DNA of 64,000 nucleotides from the NCBI GenBank assembly GCA_964450805.1, contig CAYVDD010000001.1:521288-585287 (forward strand), given 5' to 3'. Under the pieces are notes generated by a model. That model was not told the origin of the DNA, did no database searches, and saw only the letters and a list, made by a program, of their open reading frames with translations. Source of the stretch: an uncultured Candidatus Saccharibacteria bacterium (GTDB lineage: Bacteria > Patescibacteriota > Minisyncoccia > Minisyncoccales > JANBVM01). Positions 33,043 to 49,548 of the stretch are shown piece after piece. The translations under genes and the position numbers were made by a program. The number at the start of each line of letters is the position of its first letter. The first letter of the stretch is position 1.

Positions 33043-33046
33043 AAAT

Positions 33047-33565: not shown

Positions 33566-33580
33566 TTATTAAGATAAGTT

Positions 33581-33970: not shown

Positions 33971-33987
33971 ACTTAAGAAATGAACAT

Positions 33988-35517: not shown

Positions 35518-36151
35518 ATTGATAGGGTTTTTGAGATAATTTAGAAATTTCCTGCATTATTTTATCTGTCACTTTTCTTAAAAGCACCTTATATTTATCT
35601 TTATTTTTTTTAATAACTTTTATATCTTCTCTTTCTTTCAAGAAATACAAGGGTTTTCCTATTTTAATAATCCTTTTAAAAGAATTAGCAACTACTTGTA
35701 TTCCTACTGGAATTACAGGAACTCCTGTTCTGAGAGTTAATTCTGCTATACCTGTTTTACCCTTTAAAAGGTTTTTTTTATTATTACTATCTCCTTCAGG
35801 ATAAATAACAATAATTTTATTTTCCCTTATATTTCTAGCCAGTATGTTTATGAAATTTTTCCTATCAACGTTTTTTCTGTTCAGCTTGATTGTATTTGTA
35901 AAATAATAAAGTCCTCCTGATATAAATAAAGTTTTCAAGCTGTCCATAGCACCGACAAAACGAACATTTTTCAATCTTTCTTTTAATAGAGAAATAATAA
36001 ACCAGTGGTCTTTGCCGTCAAGGTGGTTTGGGGCAAGAATAAAATTACTCTGTTCAGGAATATTCTCCTTTCCTTCTACTTTTTTCAAAAAAAATTTTTC
36101 AATAAAAGGAGAAGATATATATCTACAGAAATAAATAAAAGATGTTTTCAT
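35507..36151 (-). CDS. plsC: 1-acyl-sn-glycerol-3-phosphate acyltransferase family protein
   Basis: HX4D motif NHLDGKD and IYPEGDSN. Confidence 0.8.
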   Translation of the reverse strand: MKTSFIYFCRYISSPFIEKFFLKKVEGKENIPEQSNFILAPNHLDGKDHWFIISLLKERLKNVRFVGAMDSLKTLFISGGLYYFTNTIKLNRKNVDRKNFINILARNIRENKIIVIYPEGDSNNKKNLLKGKTGIAELTLRTGVPVIPVGIQVVANSFKRIIKIGKPLYFLKEREDIKVIKKNKDKYKVLLRKVTDKIMQEISKLSQKPYQYGN

Positions 36152-36819
36152 GCTTTTAAATCCAGTCTTGATTTCAAATAGATTATCTCTTCCATTATTT
36201 TATCAGTAATTTCCTGAAGTAGTAACCTGTAATCATCTGATTCCTTGTCTATATTCTTACCTTTTTCGTATTCTTCGTGAAAATATAGGGGTTTGCCAAT
36301 GTTAATTTCAACAATTCTTTTTATTTTAAGATTACCTTCTGGAGGCAGAATATCAAATGTGCCCTTGATTGCTACAGGAAGAATCGGTTTCCCTGTTTCT
36401 AAAAAGATATTAGCTGCACCATACTTGCCTTTTCCTATTTCTCCAGTCCTGGTTCTTGTTCCTTCAGGATAAATTATCAAGCAATCTCCTTTCTTGACTG
36501 ATTCTATGGCTTCTTTCATCATATTTTTCTTTGAAGCCTTACTTTTTCTATTTAAACGAATGACCCCAGCCAGGAAATATATAATATAAAGAGACAATTT
36601 CGTCAATCCTGTGTATTGGTCTGTTTGGCCAATAAAATGAAATCTTCTTGGGACACAAATATAGCCAGTAGCTACCTGGTCTAAGTGGCTTTGATGATTT
36701 GATGCCAGGATAAAGTTTTCTTTAGGTATGTTATCAAGTCCTGTAATTTTTTTAATGAAAAGTATTCTGGCAATAGGAGCAATAAAAATTTTACAAAACC
36801 AAGAAATTAGTCTATTCAT
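36148..36819 (-). CDS. plsC: 1-acyl-sn-glycerol-3-phosphate acyltransferase family protein (paralog)
   Basis: HX4D motif NHQSHLD and IYPEGTRT. Confidence 0.8.
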   Translation of the reverse strand: MNRLISWFCKIFIAPIARILFIKKITGLDNIPKENFILASNHQSHLDQVATGYICVPRRFHFIGQTDQYTGLTKLSLYIIYFLAGVIRLNRKSKASKKNMMKEAIESVKKGDCLIIYPEGTRTRTGEIGKGKYGAANIFLETGKPILPVAIKGTFDILPPEGNLKIKRIVEINIGKPLYFHEEYEKGKNIDKESDDYRLLLQEITDKIMEEIIYLKSRLDLKA

Positions 36820-36824
36820 TTAAT

Positions 36825-37760
36825 TTAATTTAAGCTTCTTTTTTTAAGAATCTTTTGTGCGTCTTTCATAGTTTGTTCAATAATTTCTTTACATGTTTTA
36901 ATCTCTGAAATATCTCCAGCACAAAGGCCACAAAGAAGCGGAGCTTTTTCAACGTCAGCGTTTAATAATTTTGAAGATGAGTATGCGTCAGCTCTGACTT
37001 CTTCAGGAAAAGGATTTTTTTCTTCTAATTTTTTCACTCTTTCAACTAATTCATTTTTTATTAATCTTACTGGATGGCCAGTGAATTCTGCTACAGTTAC
37101 CACATTTTCATCGGTAGCATTTAAGATTGCTTTCTTATAATCTTCATTAATATCACATTCTTTGCTTGCTAAAAATCTAGTTCCCATTTGAACTCCATCT
37201 GCACCTAAAACAAACATTGCTGCTGTGGTTTTTCCATTATAGATACCGCCAGCTGCAACTAAAGGAATATTCCTGAGCACTTTTTTTGCTTGAGGCACTA
37301 AACTCAGTGTTGTTTTTTGGCCGATATGACCTCCTGACTCCATTCCTTCTACTACAATAATGTCAGCGCCATTTTCCTCCATTTTTTTAGCCAATCTTGT
37401 AATAGCAACAACAGTAATAATTTTAATTCCAGCTCTTTTTAAATGAGGGAGTAAAGGAAGGGGATTGCCTCCTCCGGTTGAAACAATAGACACTTTTTTC
37501 TTAATTATTACTTTTACTAAATCAGGAATGTTTGGGTTTTGGAGCATTAAATTTACTGCAAACGGTTTATCAGTTAATTTTTTAGTTTTATCAATCTCCT
37601 GTTTCAGCCATTTAGTAGGTAAAAAACCAGAACCAATTGTTCCTAATCCTCCGGCATTTGAAACAGCTGAAACTAAAATAGAATCTGAAATTCCAGCCAT
37701 TGCTCCCTGGATAATAGGATATTTAATATTTAAGACTTCTGTTAATTTTTCACCAAGCAT
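36825..37760 (-). CDS. fabK: enoyl-[acyl-carrier-protein] reductase II / nitronate monooxygenase family
   Basis: YPIIQGAMAGISD...NAGGLGTIG, GADIIVVEGMESGGH, AAGGI. Confidence 0.8.
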   Translation of the reverse strand: MLGEKLTEVLNIKYPIIQGAMAGISDSILVSAVSNAGGLGTIGSGFLPTKWLKQEIDKTKKLTDKPFAVNLMLQNPNIPDLVKVIIKKKVSIVSTGGGNPLPLLPHLKRAGIKIITVVAITRLAKKMEENGADIIVVEGMESGGHIGQKTTLSLVPQAKKVLRNIPLVAAGGIYNGKTTAAMFVLGADGVQMGTRFLASKECDINEDYKKAILNATDENVVTVAEFTGHPVRLIKNELVERVKKLEEKNPFPEEVRADAYSSSKLLNADVEKAPLLCGLCAGDISEIKTCKEIIEQTMKDAQKILKKRSLN

Positions 37761-37784
37761 AATTTTTTATACAAGGCTGGATTT

Positions 37785-39275
37785 TTAAGCAGTTATTATT
37801 AAAGGTTGTTTTTTTAAAATTTGATTTGCTTCTGTTGTTAATTCATGAATTAGTTCTTTTACAGAAATTATTTTATCAATTCGCCAGACATTTGAACCAG
37901 CAAAAAATAGTCCTTTTTCAAAATCACCTTTTCGGGCTTTTTCTAAAGCCTCTAAAATACAATAGCTTTTATCGCAGGTCATACCTATACATCCCTTGCA
38001 TTTCAGAGGGTCTGGTTTTGGAGCTTTACCTTCTAGAATTTTTTCAACTAAAGGAGTTTTGATTGCTCTGCCAGGCAGTCCAACAGGGGAATGGATAATT
38101 ACAACATCTTCTTTTTTAGCTTTCAAATGAGCTTCCTTAAATCTTTGATGGACATCGCATTCTTTTGTTGATACAAATCTTGTTGCCATTTGAACTCCTT
38201 TTGCTCCTGCTCTTAGCATTTCTACAATGTCTTTTCCATTAAATACGCCGCCAGCAGCAATTATCGGAGTTTTTACAGCCTTTACAACATCTTTGACAAT
38301 ATCAATAGTTTTTCTAAATTCATGACCTTTTGGGAATCCAAGATGTCCTCCTGCATCCATTCCTTCAACAACTATGGCTGCTGCACCCATTTCTTCACCT
38401 TTTTTAGCAACCTTAACAGATGAGGCCATTGAAAATATGGGAACATTATATTTTCTTCCCGTTTCAAAAATATCTTTTCTAAACCCTGCTCCTTGAATTA
38501 TTAAATCAACCTTTTCTTCCATAGCTGCTTTAACTAATTCAGTAAAGTGATTTATTACTCCCATAATATTTATTCCTATTAATCCTTTGGGTCCAGCAAT
38601 TTCTCTGGCTTTTCTAATTTCTGATTTAATTTCTTCTGGATCAGTCATTCCTGAAGCAGCAATAATACCTATTCCTCCATGTTTTGCTACATTTCCAGCT
38701 AAATTATGTAAAGAGACTCTGACTGCCATACCGCCTTGAATAATAGGGATTTTAGCAAAAAGACTGCCAATTTTTAAAGGTGGTAATGTAGTCTGGGCTT
38801 GGGGATTGTCCTCTTTTTTTTCAATGCTTTTTTGAAACTCGTCTTTATCTATAATAGCAACACTAAATCTTGCTTCACCTTTCATTCTATTATTTACAAA
38901 AACCTCTCCTTTCATATTAGCAATTTTATTGCCATAAAACCCAATAAGCTTTACTTTGTATTGCATTCTATCTCCAGGAAAAATTGGCTCATAAAAAAAA
39001 GCACTTCTGATTTGATAGGCTAGCAGGTGCTTGCTTTTATGAGAAGAGCCCAATTTTTTCCTTAAAAGGATTGTTCCTGTTTGAGCAATGCCTTCAAGAA
39101 CCAAAACTCCAGGCATTATTGGATAGCCGACAAAATGACCTTTAAAATAAGGGTCGTCTTTTGATGTTTTTTTATAACTAACAATATTATGAGTTGAAAT
39201 ACTTTCTACTTCATCAACCCATAAAAAAGGCTCGTCATAAGGAATTATTTTTTTAATTTGGTTTTTAGTTAACAT
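37785..39275 (-). CDS. fusion protein: FabZ/FabA-type hotdog dehydratase (N-term) plus FabK/NMO-like FMN oxidoreductase (C-term)
   Basis: aa 1-150: PYDEPFLWVDEV...DPYFKGHFVGYPIMPGVLVLEGIAQTG (catalytic His/Glu context). aa 170-496: PIIQGGMAVRVS, VVEGMDAGGHLG, AAGGV, and a C-terminal Cys cluster CKGCIGMTCDKSYC. Confidence 0.8.
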   Translation of the reverse strand: MLTKNQIKKIIPYDEPFLWVDEVESISTHNIVSYKKTSKDDPYFKGHFVGYPIMPGVLVLEGIAQTGTILLRKKLGSSHKSKHLLAYQIRSAFFYEPIFPGDRMQYKVKLIGFYGNKIANMKGEVFVNNRMKGEARFSVAIIDKDEFQKSIEKKEDNPQAQTTLPPLKIGSLFAKIPIIQGGMAVRVSLHNLAGNVAKHGGIGIIAASGMTDPEEIKSEIRKAREIAGPKGLIGINIMGVINHFTELVKAAMEEKVDLIIQGAGFRKDIFETGRKYNVPIFSMASSVKVAKKGEEMGAAAIVVEGMDAGGHLGFPKGHEFRKTIDIVKDVVKAVKTPIIAAGGVFNGKDIVEMLRAGAKGVQMATRFVSTKECDVHQRFKEAHLKAKKEDVVIIHSPVGLPGRAIKTPLVEKILEGKAPKPDPLKCKGCIGMTCDKSYCILEALEKARKGDFEKGLFFAGSNVWRIDKIISVKELIHELTTEANQILKKQPLIITA

Positions 39276-40012
39276 TAAAGAGATAATCCTCCATCAATAT
39301 TAATTATTGTTCCAGTAATGAAGCTAGCTTTATCTGAAGCTAAGAATGCGACTAAATCTGCCACTTCTTCTGGTTTTCCAAATCTGCCCAGTGAAGTGAG
39401 TTTTTTAATCATTAATTTTAATTGTAAAGGTATGTTATTAGTTAATTTTGTTTCAATGAAACCAGGAGCAATAGCATTAACAAGAACACCATGTTTCCCA
39501 ACTTCTTTGCTTAAAGCTTTTGTGAAACCAATTATTCCAGCTTTGGCTGCTGCATAATTTGTTTGACCAAAACTTCCTCGCTGTCCTACTACTGAAGAAA
39601 CATTAATTATTTTTCCTTTACTTGAAATGATTAAAGGAAGACAGGAATTGGTTACATTAAAGACTCCTGTTAAATCAATATCAATTACTTTTTGCCATTC
39701 TTCTTTTGTCATTTTTGCCAGAGTTCTGTCTTTACATATTCCTGCATTGTTTATTAAAGCATTTAATCGTCCAAACTCCTGCTTTATTTCTTCAGTCATT
39801 TCCTGGCACTGAGTTAAATTTGAGACATCAGCTAAAAAATATTGGGCTTTAACTCCAATTTCTTCAATTTCAGATTTTAATTTTTTTAAATTTTCTTCTT
39901 GATAAGGGATGTCGTTTAGAGCAATGTTCATGCCTGAGGAGGCAAGTTTTAGAGCAATTGCTTTTCCAATCCCTTGAGATGAACCTGTTATTAAAGCTGC
40001 TTTTCCTTTCAT
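39275..40012 (-). CDS. fabG: 3-oxoacyl-[ACP] reductase (SDR)
   Basis: TGSSQGIGKAIALKLA, NNAG, S...YAAAKAG. Confidence 0.9.
   Translation of the reverse strand: MKGKAALITGSSQGIGKAIALKLASSGMNIALNDIPYQEENLKKLKSEIEEIGVKAQYFLADVSNLTQCQEMTEEIKQEFGRLNALINNAGICKDRTLAKMTKEEWQKVIDIDLTGVFNVTNSCLPLIISSKGKIINVSSVVGQRGSFGQTNYAAAKAGIIGFTKALSKEVGKHGVLVNAIAPGFIETKLTNNIPLQLKLMIKKLTSLGRFGKPEEVADLVAFLASDKASFITGTIINIDGGLSL
39956..40012 (-). repeat. 57-bp fabG 5' coding segment (copy 1)
   Basis: 53 of 57 positions identical to 40538-40594 by hand alignment. Encodes MKGKAALITGSSQGIGKAI. Confidence 0.85.
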
Positions 40013-40027
40013 GAATTAGTTTTTAAA

Positions 40028-40594
40028 TTATTTAATTTTTTTTGAATTTAGAGACAGAATCAGTACAACTAGAGATATTTTTAATATGTCTCCTATGATA
40101 AAAGGATATAGACCGACTGTTAAGATTTTTGAAAATCCAACAAATCTTGTCAACCACAAAAGTCCAGGAATATAGATAGAAAAGTTGGCAATTAATATTG
40201 CTAAGGTAGATTTTTTGATGCTTTTATTCCAGCTTTTTTCAAGCAATAAACCCGCTAAGTAAGCTGCTATCACAAAACCTAAGATATAGCCAAAAGTAGG
40301 GCTCATAATATATATTATTCCTCCGCCTCGAGAAAACCACGGCAAACCAATCAACCCTGCCAGCAGATAAGTGATTTGAGATACAGCTCCTTTTTGGGCT
40401 CCCAGTAAAACTCCACTCAGTAAAACAATTAATGTTTGCATAGTTACTGGGACAGGACCTATTTCGATTTTAAATCCAGCACTTATTCCAGTTAAAACTG
40501 CGAAGCCTAAAACTTGAACAATATTTTTAGTCAAAATAATTGCTTTCCCAATCCCCTGAGACGAACCTGTTATTAAAGCTGTTTTTCCTTTCAT
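40028..40594 (-). CDS. bioY: biotin transporter BioY carrying a duplicated FabG N-terminus
   Basis: From residue ~20: VLGFAVLTGISAGFKIEIGPVPVTMQTLIVLLSGVLLGAQKG...GLPWFSRGGG (BioY pattern). Residues 1-19 MKGKTALITGSSQGIGKAI copy FabG. An internal TTG about 21 codons in could be the ancestral start. Confidence 0.75.
   Translation of the reverse strand: MKGKTALITGSSQGIGKAIILTKNIVQVLGFAVLTGISAGFKIEIGPVPVTMQTLIVLLSGVLLGAQKGAVSQITYLLAGLIGLPWFSRGGGIIYIMSPTFGYILGFVIAAYLAGLLLEKSWNKSIKKSTLAILIANFSIYIPGLLWLTRFVGFSKILTVGLYPFIIGDILKISLVVLILSLNSKKIK
40538..40594 (-). repeat. 57-bp fabG 5' coding segment (copy 2, fused to bioY)
   Basis: See 39956-40012. The flanks outside the 57 bp are unrelated. Confidence 0.85.
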
Positions 40595-40598
40595 AACT

Positions 40599-41657
40599 TT
40601 AGTAAAGTTTTTCTACATTATATTGTACTTCATCTGGATGTCTTCCTGCTGTTGGAATATGTTCAATTTTAATATCTTTTAAATGTTCTGGCAAATTTTC
40701 AATAATTGCAATTTCAGCAAAGATTCTATCCAAATTTAAAGAATTAAAGCTGGCAAAAGCCAGTCCTAAAGACACCACAACTTTATCACTTCTTTGAATT
40801 GATATTCCTTCAGCCAAAGTCAAATATTCTGGCAGAGTTTCGTTTATCTTCTTAAGTAGTCTTTCATAATTTTCGTCTTTTAAAGAAAGAAAAGATTTTT
40901 TACTAAGCATCGTTAAAATATTATTAGTTGCGCCTTTAATTATTGCTTTAGGTCCAAGTTTTAATTTTGGCAGATTGATTATTAAATCATTTTCAAATGC
41001 TTGTTCTGAAATTTGAACAGTTAAGCCATTTATTTCTTTTTTTCTAAATCTGGTTTTTGCTAGATCTAAAACAGCTATTTTGTATTTTAAGGCAATATCT
41101 AAGAGCTGGGATTTCTGAGCAGAAGCTTTAATCGGCAGATCATCAAAACTCTGACCAGCTATTTTGATGTTTTTTAAATCAGCCCCGCATTGAACCAAGA
41201 ACTTGATTGCAGCCTCCATAAATTCTGGAGTTGTATTATCAGCCAGATAAGGATGCTTAGCAGATATTAATGTAGGCAAAATCAGGATTTTGGAATTTTT
41301 GTCTATTTTCAGTCCTCCAATCAGTTCAATGGTTTTTTCAATTGCCTCTAAAATATCATACTTTACTTTCCATAAAGATACAGTTTTTTTGTCTTGAGAA
41401 CATTTCAGGTCAAAATCATCGTTAATCTTGTATTCTTTAAAAGATTTCTGTGTCCAGCGGTTTCCCTGTTCATCTTCTAAAACCAAAACAAAGTAAGGTG
41501 TTTTAAGATGTAAAAGAGTTGGGATTTTTACCTTGCTAATACCAATCACTTTAGCCTTCTTGCTTTTTAATCTTTTGACACCTGAAAAACAATCAGGACA
41601 TTTGCCGATGTTGTGCTGCCACTTATTTTCACATTTGGGACATTGAAAAAATGCCAT
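40599..41657 (-). CDS. DUF35-like (Zn-ribbon + OB fold) N-terminal module fused to a DUF362-like domain
   Basis: CPKCENKWQHNIGKCPDC, then an OB-like VIGISKVKIPT...YFVLVLEDEQGNRW. The C-terminal ~250 aa (KILILPTLISAKHPYLADNTTPEFMEAAIKFLVQCGA) resemble DUF362. Confidence 0.55.
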   Translation of the reverse strand: MAFFQCPKCENKWQHNIGKCPDCFSGVKRLKSKKAKVIGISKVKIPTLLHLKTPYFVLVLEDEQGNRWTQKSFKEYKINDDFDLKCSQDKKTVSLWKVKYDILEAIEKTIELIGGLKIDKNSKILILPTLISAKHPYLADNTTPEFMEAAIKFLVQCGADLKNIKIAGQSFDDLPIKASAQKSQLLDIALKYKIAVLDLAKTRFRKKEINGLTVQISEQAFENDLIINLPKLKLGPKAIIKGATNNILTMLSKKSFLSLKDENYERLLKKINETLPEYLTLAEGISIQRSDKVVVSLGLAFASFNSLNLDRIFAEIAIIENLPEHLKDIKIEHIPTAGRHPDEVQYNVEKLY

Positions 41658-41680
41658 AGATGAATTATATATAATAGTAT

Positions 41681-42187
41681 ATGAATGTAAATGATATTAC
41701 AAAAACATATTATTTGCCTGAAAAGCTCAGGCCGGAATTAAAAAAGATTTGGGGAACAGCTATTTTGGGCAAAAATAATGAAGTTTTTAAGAAGTGTCAG
41801 AAATTTATTAAAGAAAGGGGATTTAAAAAAATAATTACAGTAGGTGATTATTGTTCTTTGTCTCTTTATTCTAATGTTAAGATCTTTGACGGCAAGATAA
41901 AAAGAGAACAGGTTAAAAATACTTTACCTTTTTCTCTGGAATGTACTAATCCTGCTGGTGTCATTAATGTGGGGGTTTGGCCGATTATTGACCAGGCAAT
42001 TAAAGAAGAAAAAAACCTTTTTGTTAAAGGAGAGGAGGATCTGTTGGTTATTCCTGCTGTTTTGCTTTCTGAAAAAGGAACTGCAATAATTTATGGCCTG
42101 CCAGACAAGGGGATTGGTATAATTGAATCTTCAGAAGAAATCAAAAAGAATTTAAAAGAACTTCTTGAAAAATTTGAAACTAGGTAA
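41681..42187 (+). CDS. DUF359/COG1909 family, archaeal-type GTP-dependent dephospho-CoA kinase homolog
   Basis: LRPELKKIWG, ITVGDYCS, FDGKIKRE, NPAGVI, VKGEEDLLVIPAVL, IIYGLPDKG. These are the motifs I associate with the Thermococcus TK1697 family. Confidence 0.6.
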   Translation: MNVNDITKTYYLPEKLRPELKKIWGTAILGKNNEVFKKCQKFIKERGFKKIITVGDYCSLSLYSNVKIFDGKIKREQVKNTLPFSLECTNPAGVINVGVWPIIDQAIKEEKNLFVKGEEDLLVIPAVLLSEKGTAIIYGLPDKGIGIIESSEEIKKNLKELLEKFETR

Positions 42188-43304
42188 GTCTTTTAAAAAT
42201 ATGAACAGTAACACTTCCTCCTGCTCCACCTACGTTATGACAGAGTCCGATTTCAGGGGTTGGATTTACCTGTCTTTTATCGCATTTACCTCTTAATTGA
42301 TTTACGATTTCATATATCTGGGCCAATCCTGTTACTGATATGGGATGGCCTTTTGCCTTTAATCCTCCTGAAGGATTAACTGGCATTTCACCATTTAAGT
42401 TTATTTTACCTGACCTTATCAGTTCTTTTCCTTTACCAATTGGCGCAAATCCTAAATCCTCATAAGAAAATAATTCTACAGAAGTAAAGGCATCATGGAT
42501 TTCAGCTACATCAATGTCGTTTGGCTTTAACTTCGCTTCTTTAAACGCTTGTTTTGCTGCTAATCTTGTTGCTTTAAAATGAGTAATGTCATCACGCAGG
42601 AAAGTTAAAAGATAATCAGTGGCAAAACCAGAACCAATAATTTCAATATCAGTTTTTTCAGAAGAAACAATAACAGCAGCGCCTCCATTAATTGATAAAG
42701 AACAATCAAGCAGCCTTAAAGGCGAGGCTACAACTGGTGAGTTTTTAATTTTTTCCAATGAAACGGGTCGTTTGTAAAAATAGGCTTTGGGATTTAATAC
42801 AGCATTTTGATGATTTTTAAAAGCAATTAAAGCCAGATCATCCATTGTAGCGCCGTATTTTTCCATATACTGCTGCCAGACCAATGCATTTTGAACAGGG
42901 AAAAGCATGCCTTCTGGCTGTTCAATTACTTTTTCAGCTGCTGACATTATATTGTCTGTTGTTATTTCGCTGATGTTGTAGACTATTCTTTCACCACTTA
43001 AAACCAGAACATTTTTAAGGCCTAATCTAGCGCCTGTCCAGGTTGCCACACCTCCACCAGAGCAGACTGAAGGAGTTTCAATAATTGGTACATTGGTTTT
43101 AAATAAATCAGAAATAAGAGATATTTTATGGGTTTGATGCTCTCCAGCAGCAGCGCTTGACATTCCTGTAAGAACAATTCCATTAATTTGAGAGATTTTC
43201 ATTTTAGAGTCCTCAAGCGCTTCTATTGCTGCTTCATAGGCCTGTTTCCACCAGGGTTTTTGAGAATAATCAAATTTTGTCATTCCTACGCCTTTAATAT
43301 ACAT
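42180..43304 (-). CDS. thiolase-fold protein (SCP-x / archaeal acetoacetyl-CoA thiolase type)
   Basis: Nucleophile context ETPSVCSGGG, AEIHDAFTSVEL, NPSGGLKAKGHPISVTG, CHNVGGAG. Confidence 0.8.
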   Translation of the reverse strand: MYIKGVGMTKFDYSQKPWWKQAYEAAIEALEDSKMKISQINGIVLTGMSSAAAGEHQTHKISLISDLFKTNVPIIETPSVCSGGGVATWTGARLGLKNVLVLSGERIVYNISEITTDNIMSAAEKVIEQPEGMLFPVQNALVWQQYMEKYGATMDDLALIAFKNHQNAVLNPKAYFYKRPVSLEKIKNSPVVASPLRLLDCSLSINGGAAVIVSSEKTDIEIIGSGFATDYLLTFLRDDITHFKATRLAAKQAFKEAKLKPNDIDVAEIHDAFTSVELFSYEDLGFAPIGKGKELIRSGKINLNGEMPVNPSGGLKAKGHPISVTGLAQIYEIVNQLRGKCDKRQVNPTPEIGLCHNVGGAGGSVTVHIFKRLT

Positions 43305-43332: not shown

Positions 43333-45042
43333 TTATTTTTTTTGAATTCCTGTCCAGCTCGCAGTTATAGATTGGCTCCCTATCACCTTACTAACAGATA
43401 AAGGTATTAAATTCGTGAAAGAGATATCAGCTTTAGTTTTTAATTTTAAACTATCCTTTACTTTTTTGATAGCTTCAATGCTTTTAGAATATCCTAATAT
43501 TACTCTGATTTTTTTAAATTTTTTAGAATCTTTTAAGATCTTTTTTGTTAAAGCTTCAGTACTATTCTGGGCTAAAACAATCCCTGTTTTTAGAACCTTG
43601 CCGTTTTTAAGCTTCAGTACTGGATAGAGCTTTATTTTATCAGTTCTAGTCGTTTGTTTGAAGTTTTCAGAAATTACATAGTGGTGTATTTTAGAAACAA
43701 AACTTTTAAGCTCTTTTAAAATATCATCTACACTTCTTTGTTCTTGTATCAGCTCAATGGATTTTAAAACAACTAATGCCTGGCCAGTTCCTGTGTTTAA
43801 TGAATCAAAAACAAATATTTTTTTGGGTTTGGAGCTTGCTAGTTTTGCTTTTACTGCTAAATCATAGCAATTGTACAGGTTTGATGAGTTTACAATACAT
43901 AAAACACTGTTGAATTTTTTAAGCTGTTTTTCAAAAGCACTTAAATAATTATTATAAGTCAAACCAGAAACTTTTACCTTTCTTTTTTTAAGCTTTTGAA
44001 AGATATTTTGATTTAATATTTTCTCTTCTGATAACTTTTTCTCACAATCAATTAATTCTATCTGGTATCTTTCAATAATCTTAGACAAAAGCATTGATGA
44101 AGTTTCAGTAACAAGCCCTACTGACACAGCTTTTATTGATTCTTCACCAACTATTTCTTTTGTTACATCTTCAATCCTCAAACTTTTTATTTCTCCTACT
44201 TCTTTTAAAACAGATCTTACTTCGTCAGGATAGTCGGTGTGAATATGAATTTTTACCCTGTTTTTAACCTGAACAATATCAATAGAATTTCCTAATTTCT
44301 TTAATTTTTCTTTTATTTCTTTTTTTTCTAAAACAGGACTCGCAATTAAAGCAACAACTTCATAGCGATTGGAAATAATCTGAATAAATCTTTTAACTTT
44401 TTCTGAAGGCTTGTCTTGTTTCTTTGCTTCTTTACTCCTGCCTTTTAAAGCTTCTAAATGGCTTTCTAAAATAATTAAAAAGGCCATCCCACCCGCATCA
44501 ACCACATTTGCTTTTTTCAAAATCTCCATTTTCTCTCTGGTCTCAAGCAGTGCTTTGTCTGCATTTTTGACTGCTTTTTCAAATACAGAAATAATATTTT
44601 TTTCTTTACCAGATGCTTTTTTAAACACTGAAGCTGCAGCATCAATAACATCTAAAATTGTGCCTTGTTGTGGATTTTGAATGCTTTCTTTGGCTCTTTT
44701 AGCACCTTTATCAAAAGCCAATGCTAAATTATTAATATCAATTATTTCAGTTAGCTTTGGTAAAAAACCAGCTAAAAAACCGGTAAAAATAACACCGGCA
44801 TTTCCCTGAGCATTGGTTAAGGCTCCGTCTAAAATTGCTTCTGATAGATCGCTAAAGGTTTTAAAGTCTTTATTTTCAATTGCTTCTTTTATTCCAAGCA
44901 ATGTTTTTGCAACATTATTTCCAGTATCCTGATCTGGAACTGGGAAAACATTAATTTTGTTTATTTCTTCCTTTTCTTTCTCAATTCTTTCATAAGAAAG
45001 AAGCATCATCTTTTTAAAATCATTTTGAGTGAGATTTTGCAT
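43333..45042 (-). CDS. DAK2-domain/DegV-like fusion protein (YloV / FakA-like fatty-acid kinase subunit)
   Basis: N-terminus INVFPVPDQDTGNNV (Dak2/DhaL), and a C-terminal DegV-like alpha/beta region, 569 aa. Confidence 0.7.
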   Translation of the reverse strand: MQNLTQNDFKKMMLLSYERIEKEKEEINKINVFPVPDQDTGNNVAKTLLGIKEAIENKDFKTFSDLSEAILDGALTNAQGNAGVIFTGFLAGFLPKLTEIIDINNLALAFDKGAKRAKESIQNPQQGTILDVIDAAASVFKKASGKEKNIISVFEKAVKNADKALLETREKMEILKKANVVDAGGMAFLIILESHLEALKGRSKEAKKQDKPSEKVKRFIQIISNRYEVVALIASPVLEKKEIKEKLKKLGNSIDIVQVKNRVKIHIHTDYPDEVRSVLKEVGEIKSLRIEDVTKEIVGEESIKAVSVGLVTETSSMLLSKIIERYQIELIDCEKKLSEEKILNQNIFQKLKKRKVKVSGLTYNNYLSAFEKQLKKFNSVLCIVNSSNLYNCYDLAVKAKLASSKPKKIFVFDSLNTGTGQALVVLKSIELIQEQRSVDDILKELKSFVSKIHHYVISENFKQTTRTDKIKLYPVLKLKNGKVLKTGIVLAQNSTEALTKKILKDSKKFKKIRVILGYSKSIEAIKKVKDSLKLKTKADISFTNLIPLSVSKVIGSQSITASWTGIQKK

Positions 45043-45136: not shown

Positions 45137-45790
45137 TTATTTAAATTTTTCTTCCAGTTCTTTAAGGATTCTGGCAGCCAGGTCTTTTCCTCCTAATCCA
45201 AATGCAATTCCAACAGAAATAGAAACAGCAGCTACCATGCCAATAAAAACAACCAAAATTAAAGAAGGGGTAATCTGAAGCTGGTATAAAACAGCCAGCA
45301 GCGCAAAAAACCAGATTCCCCAATGGATTAATCTTCCCAGAAATTTAGAATAAACTATTCTTTCTTTTTCTAATGTTCCAATAACAATCTTTCTGGAAAA
45401 GTCAGCAATAAAGGTTGCCGCAACAAATATCAGAAAAGCAATGAAAATATTTGGAAAATACTCAATCACTCTTTCAAGGAATTGACTGAATTGGGTCAGC
45501 CCCATTATCTCTGAAGATGCCATTAAAAATACAAAAATGAAAAACCATTTAACTAGGTCTCCAAAAAAATTAGTTGCATTAAAACGGACATCTATTTTTG
45601 ATAAGGTATTATCAAGACCCAATCTTTTTAAAACCTGGTTTAACCTGATTCTTTTAAGAAAAGCAACTGCCAGCTTCTTTAAAGAACCAGCAATAATGAA
45701 TCCAAATAAAAGAAACAGGATTCCTCCGAAAATAGCAGGAAAAATTTCAGCTATATTTTCCCAAACTAAATTAATTATTTCTTGAATCAT
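45137..45790 (-). CDS. hypothetical multi-pass membrane protein
   Basis: Four or more hydrophobic helices. No catalytic motif recognised. Confidence 0.6.
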   Translation of the reverse strand: MIQEIINLVWENIAEIFPAIFGGILFLLFGFIIAGSLKKLAVAFLKRIRLNQVLKRLGLDNTLSKIDVRFNATNFFGDLVKWFFIFVFLMASSEIMGLTQFSQFLERVIEYFPNIFIAFLIFVAATFIADFSRKIVIGTLEKERIVYSKFLGRLIHWGIWFFALLAVLYQLQITPSLILVVFIGMVAAVSISVGIAFGLGGKDLAARILKELEEKFK

Positions 45791-45821: not shown

Positions 45822-46397
45822 TTACCATTTTGCCTTATGTAATCTCAAGTGATAACCGAATCGATTCACTATAATATGAAGGAAAAATGTTAATATTAAA
45901 AGGGTTATCCAGACTAAATTATCAATTTTAAAGCCTGACGTCAAGGAGAAAAAAACATAAGCTCCTATAACATAATTTATTTGGTCAAATGGAATAAATT
46001 TTGCACCTGGTTTCAGATCTAATCTTCTTTTAATAAATGCGAAAAATAAGTCACCAAAAACAGCGCCAGAAGATAATAAAAGACCTAAAATCAAGATGTT
46101 AATTTTTTCATAATCAAAAAAAGAAATTCCCTTAATCCAGGAAAACTGATAAAGCCGTTTTTGAGTATAAGCTACTAAAACACCAATTATTATTCCTGTT
46201 ATTGCTCCCCGCCAGGTTTTGTGAGTTCCTAATATAGGCTTGTTTTTAAATGTTTTATTGAAATCAATAGGTTTGTCTAAAAAATCAAAAACATTAGCTT
46301 TTTTAGCCAGAGGAGGAATCATATTGGTAAAATAAGCAGGAAGAAAAAAGTATAAGCAGGAAAGAATAAATCTAAACATATTTAATACATTATACAA
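45822..46397 (-). CDS. CarS-family (DUF46) CDP-archaeol synthase-like cytidylyltransferase
   Basis: FFLPAYFTNMIPP, PIDFNKTF...ILGTHKTWRG, FGDLFFAFIKRRL, FIPFDQ, and a C-terminal ...LHKAKW. These match the archaeal CarS pattern as I recall it. Confidence 0.65.
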   Translation of the reverse strand: MYNVLNMFRFILSCLYFFLPAYFTNMIPPLAKKANVFDFLDKPIDFNKTFKNKPILGTHKTWRGAITGIIIGVLVAYTQKRLYQFSWIKGISFFDYEKINILILGLLLSSGAVFGDLFFAFIKRRLDLKPGAKFIPFDQINYVIGAYVFFSLTSGFKIDNLVWITLLILTFFLHIIVNRFGYHLRLHKAKW

Positions 46398-46455
46398 TCA
46401 AAATAATGGTAAATAAAATCATTGAAACCTTTTTGCATTGTGTTAAGATTATCAA

Positions 46456-47115
46456 ATGAAATGCGACCTGCACGTGCATACCTATTATTCCTATGACAGT
46501 AATGCTTCAGTTGAAGCTATGGTTGATGCTGCAATTAAAAAAAACATTGATTGCTTGGCTATTACTGATCATAATGAAATAAAGGGAGTGTTTGAAGCTC
46601 AACAGTATGCGCAAGGTAAGCCAATTCTAATTATGCCAGGAATTGAAGTAAAAAGCAGGGAAGGTGATATTTTAGCATTAAACGTTAAAGAATTGATTCC
46701 AAAAGATTTATCAGCAGAAGAAACTATTGAGAAAATCAAAGAACAAGGCGGACTGGCTATTATTGCCCATCCTTTTGGCGACTGGCATCCTTTTAAAAAA
46801 GATTTGAAAGATTTTGTTGATAAAGCTGATGGAGTTGAAGCATTAAACGCCTCTATTTTTACTGGCAATAAAAAAATTCAAGCGTTTGTTAAAAAATACA
46901 ACATAGCCTTTACTGCTGGTTCTGATGCTCATTATCCAAGATTTGTTGGCAGGGCTTATCTGGAAATTCCAGGCAAGAATTTATCAGTTGAACAAATCTT
47001 AGAAGCAATAAAGAATAAAAAATGTAAAGCTTGCGGTAAGGAACTTTTTTTGATTGAAAAAATAACAGAACGAATTAATAGAGGGTTAATTAGGTTTTCA
47101 AAAATCTTTAAATAA
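46456..47115 (+). CDS. PHP-domain metal-dependent phosphoesterase
   Basis: MKCDLHVHTYYSYDS, ITDHN, IAHPF, GSDAH. Confidence 0.8.
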   Translation: MKCDLHVHTYYSYDSNASVEAMVDAAIKKNIDCLAITDHNEIKGVFEAQQYAQGKPILIMPGIEVKSREGDILALNVKELIPKDLSAEETIEKIKEQGGLAIIAHPFGDWHPFKKDLKDFVDKADGVEALNASIFTGNKKIQAFVKKYNIAFTAGSDAHYPRFVGRAYLEIPGKNLSVEQILEAIKNKKCKACGKELFLIEKITERINRGLIRFSKIFK

Positions 47116-47118
47116 TTT

Positions 47119-47718
47119 ATGTTAAATGAGATAAGAAATAAATTTAAATTCCTTGATGGTATACTTGGAAAAATATTTTCTAAAACTGGATTAACAGCTA
47201 ACCAGTTTACTTTAATCTCTATTGTTTTTGCTTTTATTTCTTTTTATTTTTTAATTAATCTTAATTTTATTTTAGCTTTTGCTTTATTTATCCTGGCAGG
47301 CATTTTGGATCTTATTGACGGCGCTGTAGCAAGGAAAACAGGGGAGACGTCAAATAAAGGAGCATATTTAGACACAATTTGTGATAGATATGTTGAGGGA
47401 ATTGTTTTACTTGGATTTTTGTTTTTACCTTTAACCTATTTTCTTTTGCCTCCAGAAATCTGGATTGGTTTATCGTTTTTAGGAGGTTTGATGACAACTT
47501 ACGCAAAAGCAGCAGCTAAAGAAAAAGAACTAATAATGAAAAAGCCAGCCCCAGCTTTTTTTGGCAGAACAGAAAGAATAATTTCAATAGCTCTTGCAAT
47601 ATTCTTAGGGATTTTTAATATTTCTTTAGTAATTTATCCAATAATAATTTTAGCTATTTTTTCAAACCTTTCTGCTTTACAAAGAGTGTTTTTAAGCTTT
47701 AATTCAGATAAAACTTGA
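47119..47718 (+). CDS. CDP-alcohol phosphatidyltransferase
   Basis: DLIDGAVARKTGETSNKGAYLDTICDR fits DGxxAR..G...D...D. Polytopic. Confidence 0.85.
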   Translation: MLNEIRNKFKFLDGILGKIFSKTGLTANQFTLISIVFAFISFYFLINLNFILAFALFILAGILDLIDGAVARKTGETSNKGAYLDTICDRYVEGIVLLGFLFLPLTYFLLPPEIWIGLSFLGGLMTTYAKAAAKEKELIMKKPAPAFFGRTERIISIALAIFLGIFNISLVIYPIIILAIFSNLSALQRVFLSFNSDKT

Positions 47719-47733
47719 GCTTTTTAGAAATAG

Positions 47734-47804: not shown

Positions 47805-47805
47805 T

Positions 47806-49419: not shown

Positions 49420-49425
49420 TTTTTT

Positions 49426-49497: not shown

Positions 49498-49548
49498 CCC
49501 GTATCAATCGGGTGAAGTTTGTTGATAATCTTTAATTAGAACATTATA

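What the first reader, a model, noticed from the sequence alone, without database searches (positions are those of the whole stretch)
45822..47718. CarS-like (CDP-archaeol synthase family) gene divergently paired with a PHP phosphoesterase and a CDP-alcohol phosphatidyltransferase
The 191-aa membrane protein matches the archaeal CarS pattern: LPAY..N, PID....F.....ILG..KTWRG, FGDL...FIKRR, ..DQ, and a C-terminal ...W. It does not match bacterial CdsA.

Across a 58-bp divergent region lie two further genes.

- A PHP-family phosphoesterase (HVHT...DHN...AHP...SDAH).
- Four nt downstream of it, a CDP-alcohol phosphatidyltransferase (DGxxAR-G-D-D).

This trio could form a complete head-group pathway in three steps.

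1. Activation of a phosphatidate or archaetidate-like lipid to the CDP form.
2. Transfer to an alcohol phosphate.
3. Dephosphorylation by the PHP enzyme.

A PHP-type phospholipid-phosphate phosphatase has not been described to my knowledge. It also bears on the bacterial/archaeal lipid-divide question.
Basis: partly seen in the sequence, partly recalled or inferred. Interest (0 to 1): 0.6.

Follow-up and report, generated by a model that had tools for sequence, protein, structure and literature searches.

The report
CPR bacterial CarS–PHP–inositol-lipid head-group module
A tiny-genome (CPR) bacterium carries an archaeal-type lipid-activating enzyme next to an inositol-phosphate transferase and a PHP phosphatase, inside a bacterial fatty-acid lipid cluster; this probably forms a hybrid pathway to inositol phospholipids and points to a long-missing phosphatase.

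Summary
All three genes, their motifs and their spacing are real.

**Host and context.** The host is a Nealsonbacteria-like Patescibacteria (CPR) bacterium. The trio caps a roughly 17-kb acyl-lipid supercluster containing PlsY, two PlsC, ACC, FabG/Z/K and FakA.

**The three proteins**
- The 185–191-aa protein is a true CarS-fold enzyme: Pfam 114 bits, and TM-score 0.73/0.85 to ApCarS. It is not a CdsA.
- The transferase is closest to archaetidyl-/phosphatidyl-inositol-phosphate synthases. It keeps their phosphate-pocket residues.
- The PHP protein has an intact metal site. Its nearest solved relative is uncharacterised.

**Conservation**
- In 80 species-level Parcubacteria loci, CarS→membrane protein→FakA is nearly universal.
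- The divergent PHP→transferase pair is present in 28 of these loci. The transferase never occurs there without PHP.
- A PHP-anchored metagenome sample repeats the trio in 37–38 of about 60 informative loci.
- A Nanoarchaeota-labelled contig holds the same PHP→transferase pair next to UbiA and CarS.
- Three CPR contigs place orthologous transferase and PHP genes beside myo-inositol-1-phosphate synthase.

**Reading.** The proposed route is CDP-lipid → (phosphatidyl/archaetidyl)inositol phosphate → inositol lipid, with PHP as the phosphatase.

**Open question.** It is unresolved whether CarS acts on diacyl-PA or on isoprenoid ether lipid. Four to eight relatives carry GGGPS, DGGGPS or GGR beside it.

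I rate it a new variant of known kinds, interest about 0.68.

The parts
45822..46397 (-). CarS-family CTP:lipid-phosphate cytidylyltransferase. The likely true start is the ATG at 46379, giving 185 aa.
   Evidence: - PF01864: 114.4 bits.
- NCBIfam CarS equivalog: 139.9 against a cut-off of 148.
- AF2 model pLDDT 89.8. The top PDB hit is ApCarS 5GUF (TM 0.73/0.85, rmsd 1.9 Å); TmCdsA is only TM 0.39.
- The GD…KRR…DQ motif aligns with 5GUF and is invariant in 35 homologs.
46398..46455 (.). Divergent intergenic region between the CarS-like and PHP genes (58 bp, or 76 bp with the ATG start).
   Evidence: Sequence read. Consensus-level sigma-70-like hexamers occur on both strands. These are weak evidence only: 17 sites found against 10.6±3.3 expected in the 3-kb region.
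46456..47115 (+). PHP-family metal-dependent phosphoesterase, the candidate (phosphatidyl/archaetidyl)inositol-phosphate phosphatase. It carries a C-terminal cationic amphipathic helix at residues 199-218.
   Evidence: - PHP and PHP_C domains.
- Invariant H6, H8, D14, D38, H39, E64, H105, D157 and H159 in 27 homologs.
- AF2 pLDDT 95.9.
- The best structural match is the uncharacterised TM0559/2ANU, TM 0.76.
- The C-terminal helix has the protein's highest hydrophobic moment (0.75) and net charge +3.
47119..47718 (+). Class I CDP-alcohol phosphatidyltransferase of the AIP/PIP-synthase type. It starts 3 nt after the PHP stop codon.
   Evidence: - PF01066: 66.6 bits.
- Best NCBIfam hits all use inositol-1-phosphate: AIP synthase 114.6, PIP synthase 69.2, BT1523-type 60.5, DIPP synthase 51.6. 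PgsA scores about 28-30.
- Motif D64…D89, with R90, T127, Y128, K130, R150 and R153 matching the MtPgsA1 inositol-phosphate pocket.
45137..45790 (-). Small membrane protein with MscS-type TM-helix repeats. It is the most conserved neighbour immediately downstream of the CarS-like gene.
   Evidence: PF05552: 51 bits. It is adjacent in 63 of 76 loci that have room. Its function is unknown.
43333..45042 (-). FakA/YloV-like fatty-acid kinase (Dak2, FakA middle domain and DegV-type C-terminal domain).
   Evidence: Pfam and NCBIfam hits. It lies within 5 kb downstream of CarS in 56 of 66 loci with room.
30821..43304 (-). The rest of the acyl-lipid supercluster.
- PlsY 30821-31504
- ACC carboxyltransferase 31501-33042
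- BirA 33047-33565
- BCCP 33581-33970
- biotin carboxylase 33988-35517
- two PlsC-type acyltransferases 35507-36819
- FabK 36825-37760
- FabZ–FabK fusion 37785-39275
- FabG 39275-40012
- BioY 40028-40594
- Zn-ribbon/DUF362 40599-41657
- DUF359 41681-42187 (+ strand)
- archaeal-type thiolase 42180-43304
   Evidence: Pfam and NCBIfam scans. The same order is found in the complete Nealsonbacteria genomes CP179889 and CP179890.

Best explanation
The three genes are the head-group end of a membrane-lipid pathway in a Nealsonbacteria-like CPR bacterium.

**Step 1 (family and fold shown; activity inferred).** The CarS-family enzyme transfers CMP from CTP to a lipid phosphate, giving a CDP-activated lipid. 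Given the surrounding FakA–PlsY–PlsC genes, I infer the lipid is mainly diacyl phosphatidate. On that reading CarS would stand in for CdsA.

**Step 2 (family shown; acceptor inferred from profile ranking, pocket residues and MIPS linkage of orthologs).** The CDP-alcohol phosphatidyltransferase moves the lipid-phosphate onto L-myo-inositol-1-phosphate. The product is phosphatidyl- (or archaetidyl-) inositol phosphate.

**Step 3 (inferred from conserved operon structure only).** The cytoplasmic PHP metallo-phosphoesterase is probably held at the membrane by its C-terminal amphipathic helix. It removes the inositol phosphate to give the mature inositol lipid.

**Origin (inferred).** The module is shared with DPANN-labelled archaea and was probably exchanged between the two ultra-small radiations.
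For: **Identity of the three proteins**
- CarS.
- Transferase.
- PHP with a complete metal site.

**Bacterial host**
- NusA, RNase Y, ClpP, IF2, class II CCA enzyme and T4SS pilin are present.
- dnaA/dnaN lie 10 kb to the left of the window.
- Top homologs are Nealsonbacteria/Patescibacteria.

**Linkage of CarS to the acyl route, in 80 species-level loci**
- CarS→Msc-TM protein in 63 of 76 loci with room.
- FakA within 5 kb in 56 of 66 loci with room.
- PlsY in the locus in 51 of 80.
- PlsY directly upstream on the same strand in about 7.

**Linkage of PHP to the transferase**
- Both adjacent in 28 loci, PHP alone in 5, transferase without PHP in 0.
- PHP and transferase ORFs overlap by 17-38 nt or are spaced 3-19 nt apart in most loci.
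- PHP-anchored metagenome sample: transferase directly downstream in 37 of 60 loci with room, CarS divergent upstream in 38 of 63.

**Cross-domain conservation**
- Nanoarchaeota-labelled contig L092 reads PHP→AIPS-like transferase, UbiA, CarS, two further transferases, PIG-L, GT4.
- Its PHP is 39% identical to the window's over 198 aa, E 1e-39.

**Inositol link**
- L094, L098 and L107 carry MIPS together with PHP relatives. In L094 and L098 the transferase is 44-46% identical to the window's. L107's transferase is more distant (29%). L094's NCBIfam profile matches the window's.
- L100 has a 51%-identical transferase next to PHP, but no MIPS was found on that contig.

**Need for a phosphatase**
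- The pocket residues that bind the acceptor's phosphate in MtPgsA1 (S132, Y133, K135, R152, R155, R94) are T127, Y128, K130, R150, R153 and R90 here.
- The PIP/AIP phosphatase gene is described as unidentified in mycobacteria and archaea (PMC6506517, PMC9385802).

**Functional coupling of CarS and a transferase in CPR**
- A single-polypeptide CDP-OH_P_transf–CarS fusion occurs in a complete Nomurabacteria genome.

**CdsA search**
- No CdsA-type gene in the roughly 84 kb examined.
Against: - No biochemistry exists for any of the three proteins.
- Characterised CarS (A. fulgidus) strongly prefers DGGGP over PA and cannot complement an E. coli cdsA mutant (PMC9385802, citing Jain 2014). Use of PA would therefore require a changed specificity.
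- Four Parcubacteria loci carry GGGPS (which passes the NCBIfam equivalog cut-off), a DGGGPS-like UbiA, GGR and GGPP synthase 3-8 kb from the CarS gene. Four more carry GGR, three of them also UbiA and two of those also polyprenyl synthase. The ancestral role may therefore be the archaeal one.
- No MIPS was found in the window, in the 10 kb on each side, or in any CarS-linked locus.
- The transferase scores below the AIPS and PIPS equivalog cut-offs.
- The trio is absent from the more distant CarS-bearing CPR clade: 30 of 33 loci at 40-55% CarS identity have neither gene adjacent.
- HAD phosphatases also sit in the MIPS-containing loci and could be the phosphatase there.
- The 12-kb contig L092 has no domain-diagnostic gene, so its archaeal label rests on binning.
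Confidence: 0.55

Rival explanations
1. The module works on archaeal-type lipid. The CarS-like enzyme is a genuine CDP-archaeol synthase acting on isoprenoid ether lipid. That lipid is either made by GGGPS/DGGGPS genes elsewhere in the genome or scavenged from an archaeal host. The transferase and PHP then make archaetidylinositol.
For: - Best profile hits are the archaeal enzymes: CarS 139.9 bits and AIP synthase 114.6 bits.
- The nearest named non-CPR relatives are DPANN archaea, at about 40-51% identity.
- GGGPS, DGGGPS-like, GGR and GGPPS lie beside the CarS gene in 4 Parcubacteria loci, and partial sets in 4 more.
- Characterised CarS discriminates against PA (PMC9385802).
- Nealsonbacteria and Minisyncoccus live attached to methanogens (bioRxiv 10.1101/2022.04.20.488981; PMC12281837).
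Against: - No GGGPS, UbiA, GGR or polyprenyl synthase in the window (tblastn E<=1e-3) or in the 10 kb either side.
- The window's supercluster holds PlsY, two PlsC, ACC and Fab genes instead.
- CarS is linked to FakA/PlsY in most loci.
- E. coli lysate supported Nealsonbacteria growth, which the authors took to rule out culture-specific substrates such as archaeal lipids (10.1101/2022.04.20.488981).
Confidence: 0.25
2. The head group is glycerol rather than inositol. The transferase would be a PGP synthase using glycerol-3-phosphate, and PHP would be a PGP phosphatase, giving phosphatidylglycerol.
For: - No MIPS near the trio.
- The conserved phosphate pocket is shared by all CDP-alcohol transferases that use phosphorylated acceptors (PMC6506517).
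- PG is the commonest bacterial anionic lipid (general knowledge).
Against: - PgsA profiles score only 27.8-30 bits, against 114.6 for AIP synthase. The top four families all use inositol-1-phosphate.
- In L092 a separate PgsA that passes its cut-off (149 against 109) coexists with the PHP-linked AIPS-like transferase.
- Orthologous transferases are linked to MIPS.
Confidence: 0.12
3. The PHP protein is not a lipid enzyme. It could be a housekeeping nucleotidase or nuclease of the TrpH / RNase AM / pAp-phosphatase type. Alternatively it could be a pyrophosphatase that pulls the CarS reaction forward. On either view it merely shares a regulatory region with the lipid genes.
For: - Its characterised structural and sequence relatives are RNase AM (7UG9, 9ETK) and the pAp phosphatase Cv1693 (2YB1).
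- JGI names homologs 'TrpH'.
- PHP stays next to CarS in 5 loci that lack the transferase. That fits a CarS-coupled role such as pyrophosphate removal.
Against: - Scores against the RNase RNM and nucleoside-bisphosphate phosphatase equivalogs are far below cut-off: 63 against 375 and 52 against 400.
- The nearest structure, TM0559, is uncharacterised.
- The PHP and transferase ORFs overlap or are spaced 3-19 nt apart in most loci where spacing was measured, and PHP precedes the transferase in 28 species-level loci. The pair also occurs on the DPANN-labelled contig and near MIPS.
- The conserved cationic amphipathic C-terminal helix suggests work at the membrane surface.
Confidence: 0.15

Closest known systems
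CDP-archaeol synthase CarS (PF01864; Aeropyrum pernix structure 5GUF; A. fulgidus enzyme of Jain et al. 2014)
   Same: - Same family and the same five-helix fold (TM 0.73/0.85, rmsd 1.9 Å).
- Same size, about 180 aa.
- Conserved GD…KRR…DQ catalytic motif.
   Different: - It is encoded in a bacterium.
- It is embedded in a FakA/PlsY/PlsC/Fab cluster rather than next to GGGPS/DGGGPS.
- It scores just below NCBI's equivalog cut-off.
- Its substrate may be diacyl-PA, which characterised CarS rejects (PMC9385802).
Bacterial CDP-diacylglycerol synthase CdsA (PF01148; TmCdsA 4Q2E)
   Same: It probably performs the same chemical step at the same position in the pathway, and it shares the catalytic core (partial Pfam hit of 35 bits).
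   Different: - It lacks the N-terminal and dimerisation domains: 185 aa against about 260-290 aa.
- The CdsA equivalog scores 15.8 against a cut-off of 385.
- The structural match is weak, TM 0.39/0.29.
Archaetidylinositol-phosphate synthase / phosphatidylinositol-phosphate synthase (M. thermautotrophicus AIPS; M. tuberculosis PgsA1, 6H53)
   Same: - It has the class I CDP-alcohol transferase motif.
- These are the best-scoring families.
- The inositol-phosphate pocket residues are conserved.
- Orthologs are linked to MIPS.
   Different: - It scores below both equivalog cut-offs (114.6 against 180; 69.2 against 170).
- It lacks the counterpart of R137 (A132 here).
- No MIPS has been found in this genome region.
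Bacteroides inositol-lipid cluster (MIPS BT_1526, PIPS BT_1523, PIP phosphatase BT_1525; PMC9246714)
   Same: The same three-enzyme logic applies: inositol-phosphate supply, a PIP synthase and a dedicated PIP phosphatase, all clustered.
   Different: The phosphatase there belongs to the PgpA family. Here it is a PHP-family protein with no similarity to PgpA, PAP2 or HAD phosphatases. In Bacteroides the activating enzyme is a normal CdsA encoded elsewhere.
PHP phosphoesterases TM0559 (2ANU), RNase AM/TrpH (7UG9, 9ETK), Cv1693 pAp phosphatase (2YB1)
   Same: The PHP barrel has a complete set of metal ligands, and the PHP_C extension is present.
   Different: - Only 16-25% identity over the structural alignments.
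- It has a C-terminal amphipathic helix.
- It is consistently co-transcribed with a membrane lipid transferase.
- None of these relatives is known to act on lipids.

Membership tests
CarS / CDP-archaeol synthase family (PF01864) | Full-length match to the family profile above the curated threshold | tested here: met
   Pfam scores 114.4 bits against a cut-off of 22, over residues 7-191 and profile positions 1-175 of 175.
CarS / CDP-archaeol synthase family (PF01864) | NCBIfam equivalog NF003114 (same function as archaeal CarS) above its cut-off | tested here: not met
   139.9 bits against a cut-off of 148. The Nanoarchaeota-labelled relative scores 146.8. Both are near-threshold.
CarS / CDP-archaeol synthase family (PF01864) | Five-transmembrane-helix fold of ApCarS without the CdsA dimerisation domain | tested here: met
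   AF2 model pLDDT 89.8. Foldseek against 5GUF gives TM 0.73/0.85 and rmsd 1.9 Å over 169 columns. The next hit, 4Q2E, has TM 0.39/0.29.
CarS / CDP-archaeol synthase family (PF01864) | Conserved CTP/metal-binding motif (GD…KRR…DQ) | tested here: met
   It aligns with 5GUF residues 90-174. G109, D110, K117, R118, D132 and Q133 are invariant in 35 CPR homologs.
CarS / CDP-archaeol synthase family (PF01864) | Substrate is unsaturated archaetidic acid (DGGGP) | not testable with these tools
   This needs an enzyme assay. Context in the window argues for PA. Context in 4-8 relatives argues for DGGGP.
CarS / CDP-archaeol synthase family (PF01864) | Co-occurrence with GGGP and DGGGP synthases | tested here: inconclusive
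   Neither is present in the window or the 10 kb on each side. Both are present beside the ortholog in L036, L037, L042 and L048. The rest of the 636-kb genome could not be read.
CdsA (CDP-diacylglycerol synthase, PF01148 / NF008635) | Full-length profile match and nine-helix architecture | tested here: not met
   NF008635 scores 15.8 against 385. The Pfam hit covers only profile positions 169-238 of 264. The protein is 185 aa.
Class I CDP-alcohol phosphatidyltransferase (PF01066) | Signature D1xxD2G1xxAR…G2xxxD3xxxD4 | tested here: met
   D64-D67-G68-A71-R72-G81-D85-D89. Pfam scores 66.6 bits against 22.
AIP synthase / PIP synthase | Equivalog profile above cut-off | tested here: not met
   AIPS 114.6 against 180; PIPS 69.2 against 170. 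These are nevertheless the two best hits, far above PgsA and PssA.
AIP synthase / PIP synthase | Residues lining the inositol-phosphate pocket of MtPgsA1 (R94, S132, Y133, K135, R152, R155, R195; R137 from the partner chain) | tested here: met
   R90, T127, Y128, K130, R150 and R153 align directly. R189 aligns by way of the AF2299 alignment. R137 corresponds to A132.
AIP synthase / PIP synthase | Genomic association with myo-inositol-1-phosphate synthase | tested here: inconclusive
   Orthologs at 44-46% identity lie within 1 kb of MIPS in L094 and L098. A more distant transferase (29% identity) lies about 3 kb from MIPS in L107. No MIPS was found in the window, its flanks or any CarS-linked locus.
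PHP superfamily phosphoesterase (PF02811 + PF13263) | PHP fold with a complete set of metal-binding His/Asp/Glu residues | tested here: met
   PHP 55.3 bits and PHP_C 59.4 bits. H6, H8, D14, H39, E64, H105, D157 and H159 are invariant. pLDDT is 95.9, and the model matches 2ANU at TM 0.76.
RNase AM / TrpH and 3',5'-nucleoside bisphosphate phosphatase | Equivalog profile above cut-off | tested here: not met
   RNase RNM 63.2 against 375. Nucleoside bisphosphate phosphatase 52.1 against 400.
Known phospholipid-phosphate phosphatases (PgpA, PgpB/PAP2, PgpC/HAD) | Homology to one of these families | tested here: not met
   The PHP protein gives no Pfam or NCBIfam hit to any of them. If it has this activity, it is a non-homologous type.

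The most novel reading that the evidence does not exclude
Many Parcubacteria (CPR) would run a natural chimeric membrane-lipid pathway. An archaeal-derived head-group module (CarS, an AIPS-type transferase and a PHP phosphatase) would be plugged onto bacterial acyl-phosphate lipid synthesis (FakA/PlsY/PlsC). In some lineages it would sit alongside GGGPS/DGGGPS.

This has two consequences:
- A CarS enzyme would accept diacyl-phosphatidate.
- The PHP protein would be the first PHP-type phospholipid-phosphate phosphatase. It would also be a candidate for the long-unidentified AIP/PIP phosphatase of archaea.
Probability: 0.35. Interest if true: 0.85.

Novelty: new variant of a known kind. Interest (0 to 1): 0.68.

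Why it matters
**CPR lipid capacity.** CPR bacteria are usually described as unable to make lipids (for example 10.1101/2022.04.20.488981 and PMC13293708). This locus and its relatives show a conserved and fairly complete route from fatty acid to head group.

**The lipid divide.** CarS and CdsA are regarded as gatekeepers of the bacterial/archaeal lipid divide (PMC9385802). Two findings offer a natural system for testing how strict that gate is:
- A CarS gene sits inside a PlsY/PlsC cluster.
- In sister lineages it sits next to GGGPS and DGGGPS.

**The missing phosphatase.** The phosphatase that finishes inositol-lipid synthesis is described as unidentified in mycobacteria and archaea (PMC6506517, PMC9385802). 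The only assigned one is a PgpA-type enzyme in Bacteroides (PMC9246714). A PHP-type enzyme would be a new, testable candidate.

**Gene exchange.** The shared module also documents gene exchange between the CPR and DPANN radiations.

Tried and rejected
1. **Gene fusions of PHP with the transferase.** None appear among the top 120 homologs of either protein.

2. **Phosphatase–CarS fusions as support.** PAP2–CarS and DUF212–CarS fusions exist. One has a PgsA-like neighbour, but the other sits beside a PssA-type transferase that needs no phosphatase. I therefore do not count these fusions as clean support for a head-group phosphatase.

3. **Function transfer for PHP from structure.** The best match, TM0559, is uncharacterised.

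4. **Literature on a PHP-type lipid phosphatase, or on CarS in CPR.** I found nothing. Only open-access text is searchable.

5. **Other lipid genes in the window and its flanks.** I looked for MIPS, GGGPS, UbiA, GGR, polyprenyl synthase and CdsA in the window and 10 kb on each side. None was found. The remaining ~550 kb of the genome could not be reached with these tools.

6. **A discarded count.** A first ORF- and regex-based count of adjacency undercounted, because my overlap filter removed real ORFs. I replaced it with tblastn-based counts.

7. **Promoter scan of the divergent spacer.** It gave only consensus-level matches, not clearly above background.

8. **Formal phylogeny.** I did not attempt one. 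The 50%-representative library carries no taxon labels, and only six representatives could be named.


Full report
**1. Observation.**

- A 191-aa ORF lies at 45822-46397 on the minus strand.
- A 219-aa ORF lies at 46456-47115 on the plus strand.
- A 199-aa ORF at 47119-47718 starts 3 nt after the previous stop codon.

Every quoted motif is present.

- The CarS-like Pfam family scores 114.4 bits over the full profile.
- PHP plus PHP_C scores 55.3 and 59.4 bits.
- CDP-OH_P_transf scores 66.6 bits.
- The CdsA equivalog scores only 15.8 bits against a cut-off of 385.

Homologs are 183-186 aa long, so the CarS start is probably the ATG at 46379.

**2. Host and neighbourhood.**

The window is bacterial. 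It carries NusA, RNase Y, ClpP, IF2, a class II CCA enzyme, type IV pilus genes and T4SS pilins. dnaA and dnaN lie just beyond its left end.

All three proteins have 100% matches on a 636,475-bp NCBI contig. Their close relatives are named Candidatus Nealsonbacteria or Patescibacteria.

Downstream of the CarS-like gene, on its strand, lies a long lipid supercluster. In order it contains:
- an MscS-TM-type membrane protein;
- a FakA/YloV-like fatty-acid kinase;
- an archaeal-type thiolase;
- a DUF359 protein on the opposite strand;
- a Zn-ribbon/DUF362 protein;
- BioY;
- FabG;
- a FabZ–FabK fusion;
- FabK;
- two PlsC-type acyltransferases;
- the acetyl-CoA carboxylase parts with BirA;
- PlsY.

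The complete Nealsonbacteria genomes CP179889 and CP179890 have the same order.

**3. The proteins themselves.**

*CarS-like protein.*
- The AlphaFold model has pLDDT 89.8.
- It superposes on A. pernix CarS (5GUF) with TM 0.73/0.85 and rmsd 1.9 Å.
- T. maritima CdsA is a distant second.
- The GD…KRR…DQ segment aligns with 5GUF and is invariant among 35 CPR homologs.
- The NCBIfam CarS equivalog is narrowly missed, at 139.9 against 148.

*Transferase.*
- It has the full class I signature, D64 to D89.
- Its four best NCBIfam families all use L-myo-inositol-1-phosphate: AIP synthase 114.6, PIP synthase 69.2, BT1523-type 60.5 and DIPP synthase 51.6 bits.
- PgsA models score about 28-30 bits.
- I mapped the alignment to M. 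tuberculosis PgsA1 onto the published pocket (PMC6506517).
- R94, S132, Y133, K135, R152 and R155 correspond to R90, T127, Y128, K130, R150 and R153 here.
- The acceptor is therefore almost certainly a phosphorylated alcohol, and the product needs a phosphatase.

*PHP protein.*
- Its metal ligands are invariant in 27 homologs.
- The model has pLDDT 95.9.
- Its closest structure is the uncharacterised TM0559, followed by RNase AM.
- It scores far below the RNase RNM and pAp-phosphatase equivalog cut-offs.
- Its last 20 residues form a conserved cationic amphipathic helix. This segment has the highest hydrophobic moment in the protein.
- That fits a peripheral membrane enzyme, but this is an inference.

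**4. Conservation of gene order.**

A scan of one genome per species returned 80 CarS-bearing loci. All come from Parcubacteria/Paceibacterota-type CPR; two carry a Pacearchaeota label.

tblastn of the window's proteins against these loci gave the following:
- The Msc-TM protein is adjacent in 63 of 76 loci with room.
- FakA lies within 5 kb in 56 of 66 loci with room.
- PlsY is somewhere in the locus in 51 of 80. In about seven it lies directly upstream on the same strand.
- PHP is divergently adjacent in 33 loci.
- PHP plus the transferase are both adjacent in 28 loci.
- The transferase is never adjacent without PHP.

The trio is concentrated in loci whose CarS is at least 55% identical to the window's. 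It is almost absent from the more distant clade.

In most loci where spacing was measured, the PHP and transferase ORFs overlap by 17-38 nt or are separated by 3-19 nt.

**5. Independent samples.**

I anchored a metagenome scan on PHP, with a Nanoarchaeota-labelled PHP as the lead sequence. This gave 80 further loci.
- The transferase is directly downstream in 37 of 60 loci with room.
- CarS is divergently upstream in 38 of 63 loci with room.

Among the loci without the trio, four carry a myo-inositol-1-phosphate synthase close to the PHP gene. This was confirmed by Pfam at 118-122 bits.
- L094 and L098 also carry a transferase 44-46% identical to the window's. L094's has the same NCBIfam profile as the window's.
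- L107 carries a more distant CAPT-like transferase (29% identity).
- L096 has no detected transferase.
- L100 has a 51%-identical transferase next to PHP, but no MIPS on that contig.

L094, L098 and L100 are bacterial: MurC, MurG, MraY and GatB are readable in their ORFs (my reading of the N-termini).

This ties both the transferase and this PHP subfamily to inositol-phosphate metabolism. HAD phosphatases are also present in two of these loci and are a caveat.

**6. Cross-domain picture.**

The named nearest non-CPR relatives of the CarS-like protein are DPANN archaea: Nanoarchaeota at 51% identity and Woesearchaeota at about 40%.

The Nanoarchaeota-labelled contig L092 holds the following:
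- a radical SAM gene;
- two PHP genes, one of which is followed 2 nt later by an AIPS-like transferase;
- a UbiA prenyltransferase;
- CarS;
- two more transferases, one of them a PgsA that passes its cut-off;
- a PIG-L deacetylase;
- a GT4 glycosyltransferase.

Its PHP is 39% identical to the window's (E 1e-39).

The contig is only 12 kb and has no domain-diagnostic marker. Its archaeal assignment therefore rests on binning.

Elsewhere:
- A complete Nomurabacteria genome encodes a single CDP-OH_P_transf–CarS polypeptide between gyrB and secE-nusG.
- Archaeal-looking contigs encode PAP2–CarS and DUF212–CarS fusions beside a transferase. One of those transferases is PssA-like, so these fusions are not clean evidence for a head-group phosphatase.

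**7. The open substrate question.**

Four Parcubacteria loci (L036, L037, L042, L048) carry the following 3-8 kb from the CarS gene, while keeping FakA and PlsY:
- GGGP synthase, which passes TIGR01769 and NF003198;
- a DGGGPS-like UbiA, at 249 against 296 bits;
- a geranylgeranyl reductase family protein;
- a GGPP-synthase-like gene.

Four more loci carry GGR; three of them also carry UbiA and two of those also polyprenyl synthase.

None of these genes is in the window or its 10-kb flanks.

Characterised CarS prefers DGGGP and cannot replace CdsA in E. coli (PMC9385802). Bacterial CdsA, by contrast, can make CDP-archaeol (PMC7852524).

Three possibilities remain for the CPR enzyme:
- It has shifted to PA.
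- It is promiscuous.
- In this organism it acts on isoprenoid lipid made or acquired elsewhere.

I favour PA for this genome because of the PlsY/PlsC/Fab context, but only moderately.

**8. Comparison with what is known.**

The pathway logic matches the Bacteroides inositol-lipid cluster of MIPS, PIPS and a PgpA-type PIP phosphatase (PMC9246714). It also matches the archaeal AIP route.

Reviews and structural papers state that the PIP/AIP phosphatase is unidentified in mycobacteria and archaea (PMC6506517, PMC9385802).

I found no text linking a PHP protein to phospholipid dephosphorylation. I also found none discussing CarS in CPR. NCBI already names these proteins 'CDP-archaeol synthase'.

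The cultured relative Minisyncoccus archaeiphilus has the same partial Fab/Acc cluster. Its authors call that cluster's role unclear (PMC12281837).

**9. Verdict.**

All three proteins belong to known families. What is new is the combination:
- a CarS enzyme in a bacterial acyl-lipid cluster;
- a conserved PHP phosphoesterase in the phosphatase position;
- a module shared between CPR and DPANN-labelled contigs.

I rate it a new variant of known kinds, with interest 0.68. My confidence in the full three-step model is 0.55.

Noticed in passing
L036 13848-17678; L037 13547-17440; L042 3813-7853; L048 10002-13916; partial sets in L012, L016, L020, L021: Parcubacteria loci carry archaeal-type ether-lipid genes 3-8 kb from the CarS-like gene, while keeping FakA and PlsY. 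The genes are:
- GGGP synthase, which passes NCBIfam cut-offs;
- a DGGGPS-like UbiA;
- a geranylgeranyl reductase;
- a GGPP-synthase-like gene.

These organisms are candidates for mixed or archaeal-type membranes in CPR.
   Followed up: partly
window 31501-43304: The fatty-acid synthesis cluster (ACC, FabG, FabZ–FabK, FabK) has no FabH/FabF, ACP or FabD in the window. It does have an archaeal-type thiolase (42180-43304), a Zn-ribbon/DUF362 protein (40599-41657) and an archaeal-type DUF359 dephospho-CoA kinase homolog (41681-42187). This may be an ACP-independent, CoA-based chain-building route. The thiolase is unusually conserved, at 67-94% identity across CPR loci.
   Followed up: no
window 45137-45790 (-): A 217-aa membrane protein made of MscS-type TM-helix repeats (PF05552) is the most conserved neighbour of the CarS-like gene. 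It always lies between CarS and FakA (63 of 76 loci). Its role is unknown. It could be a partner of CarS or FakA, or a lipid-handling protein.
   Followed up: partly
L087 8001-8993 (CP060223.1, Candidatus Nomurabacteria); L089 3191-4123; L090 1630-2607: Domain fusions occur in the CarS family:
- CDP-OH_P_transf–CarS in a complete CPR genome;
- DUF212 (divergent PAP2)–CarS on an archaeal-looking contig, next to a CDP-alcohol transferase;
- PAP2–CarS on another archaeal-looking contig, also next to a CDP-alcohol transferase.
   Followed up: partly
L094 2494-6672; L107 645-7298; L098 5992-11559: Other CPR contigs hold divergent units [MIPS – PadR-like – AIPS-like transferase] and [PadR-like – AMMECR1 – PHP]. 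L098 and L107 also contain several HAD_2 phosphatases, and L107 contains a second PHP copy. Inositol-lipid capacity may be widespread in CPR.
   Followed up: partly
L092 1261-9371 (JBHPDN010000020.1, labelled Nanoarchaeota): A dense lipid cluster contains three CDP-alcohol transferases, two PHP genes, UbiA, CarS, a radical SAM protein, a PIG-L-family deacetylase and a GT4 glycosyltransferase. The GT4's best hit is GlcNAc-phosphatidylglycerol synthase. This suggests glucosaminyl head groups. The domain assignment of the contig is unverified.
   Followed up: partly
L019 7774-9264; L020 15185-16705; L025 16088-17599; L028 15252-16742: A B12-binding radical SAM protein with a DUF4070 domain sits inside the lipid supercluster of four Parcubacteria loci. 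It may modify lipid chains.
   Followed up: no
window 62514-63515 (+); homologs in L018, L033, L035, L043, L046: An ApbA/PanE-like NAD(P) reductase occurs in the window. In five other loci it lies within about 1-3 kb of the thiolase in the lipid cluster. It is a possible glycerol-phosphate or ketoacyl reductase, but this was not examined.
   Followed up: no
window 45822-46397: Start-codon ambiguity. The mechanical ORF starts at a TTG (191 aa). Most homologs are 183-186 aa, which points to the ATG at 46379. The identical public protein is annotated as only 166 aa, which would remove the first transmembrane helix including the conserved LPAY motif.
   Followed up: yes
window 47733-47876, 49425-50151, 58843-59180 and L174: The region is tRNA-rich: 17 tRNAs in 64 kb. 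It lies about 10 kb from dnaA-dnaN. It also holds several T4SS-pilin-domain proteins and type IV pilus genes, as is typical of CPR.
   Followed up: no
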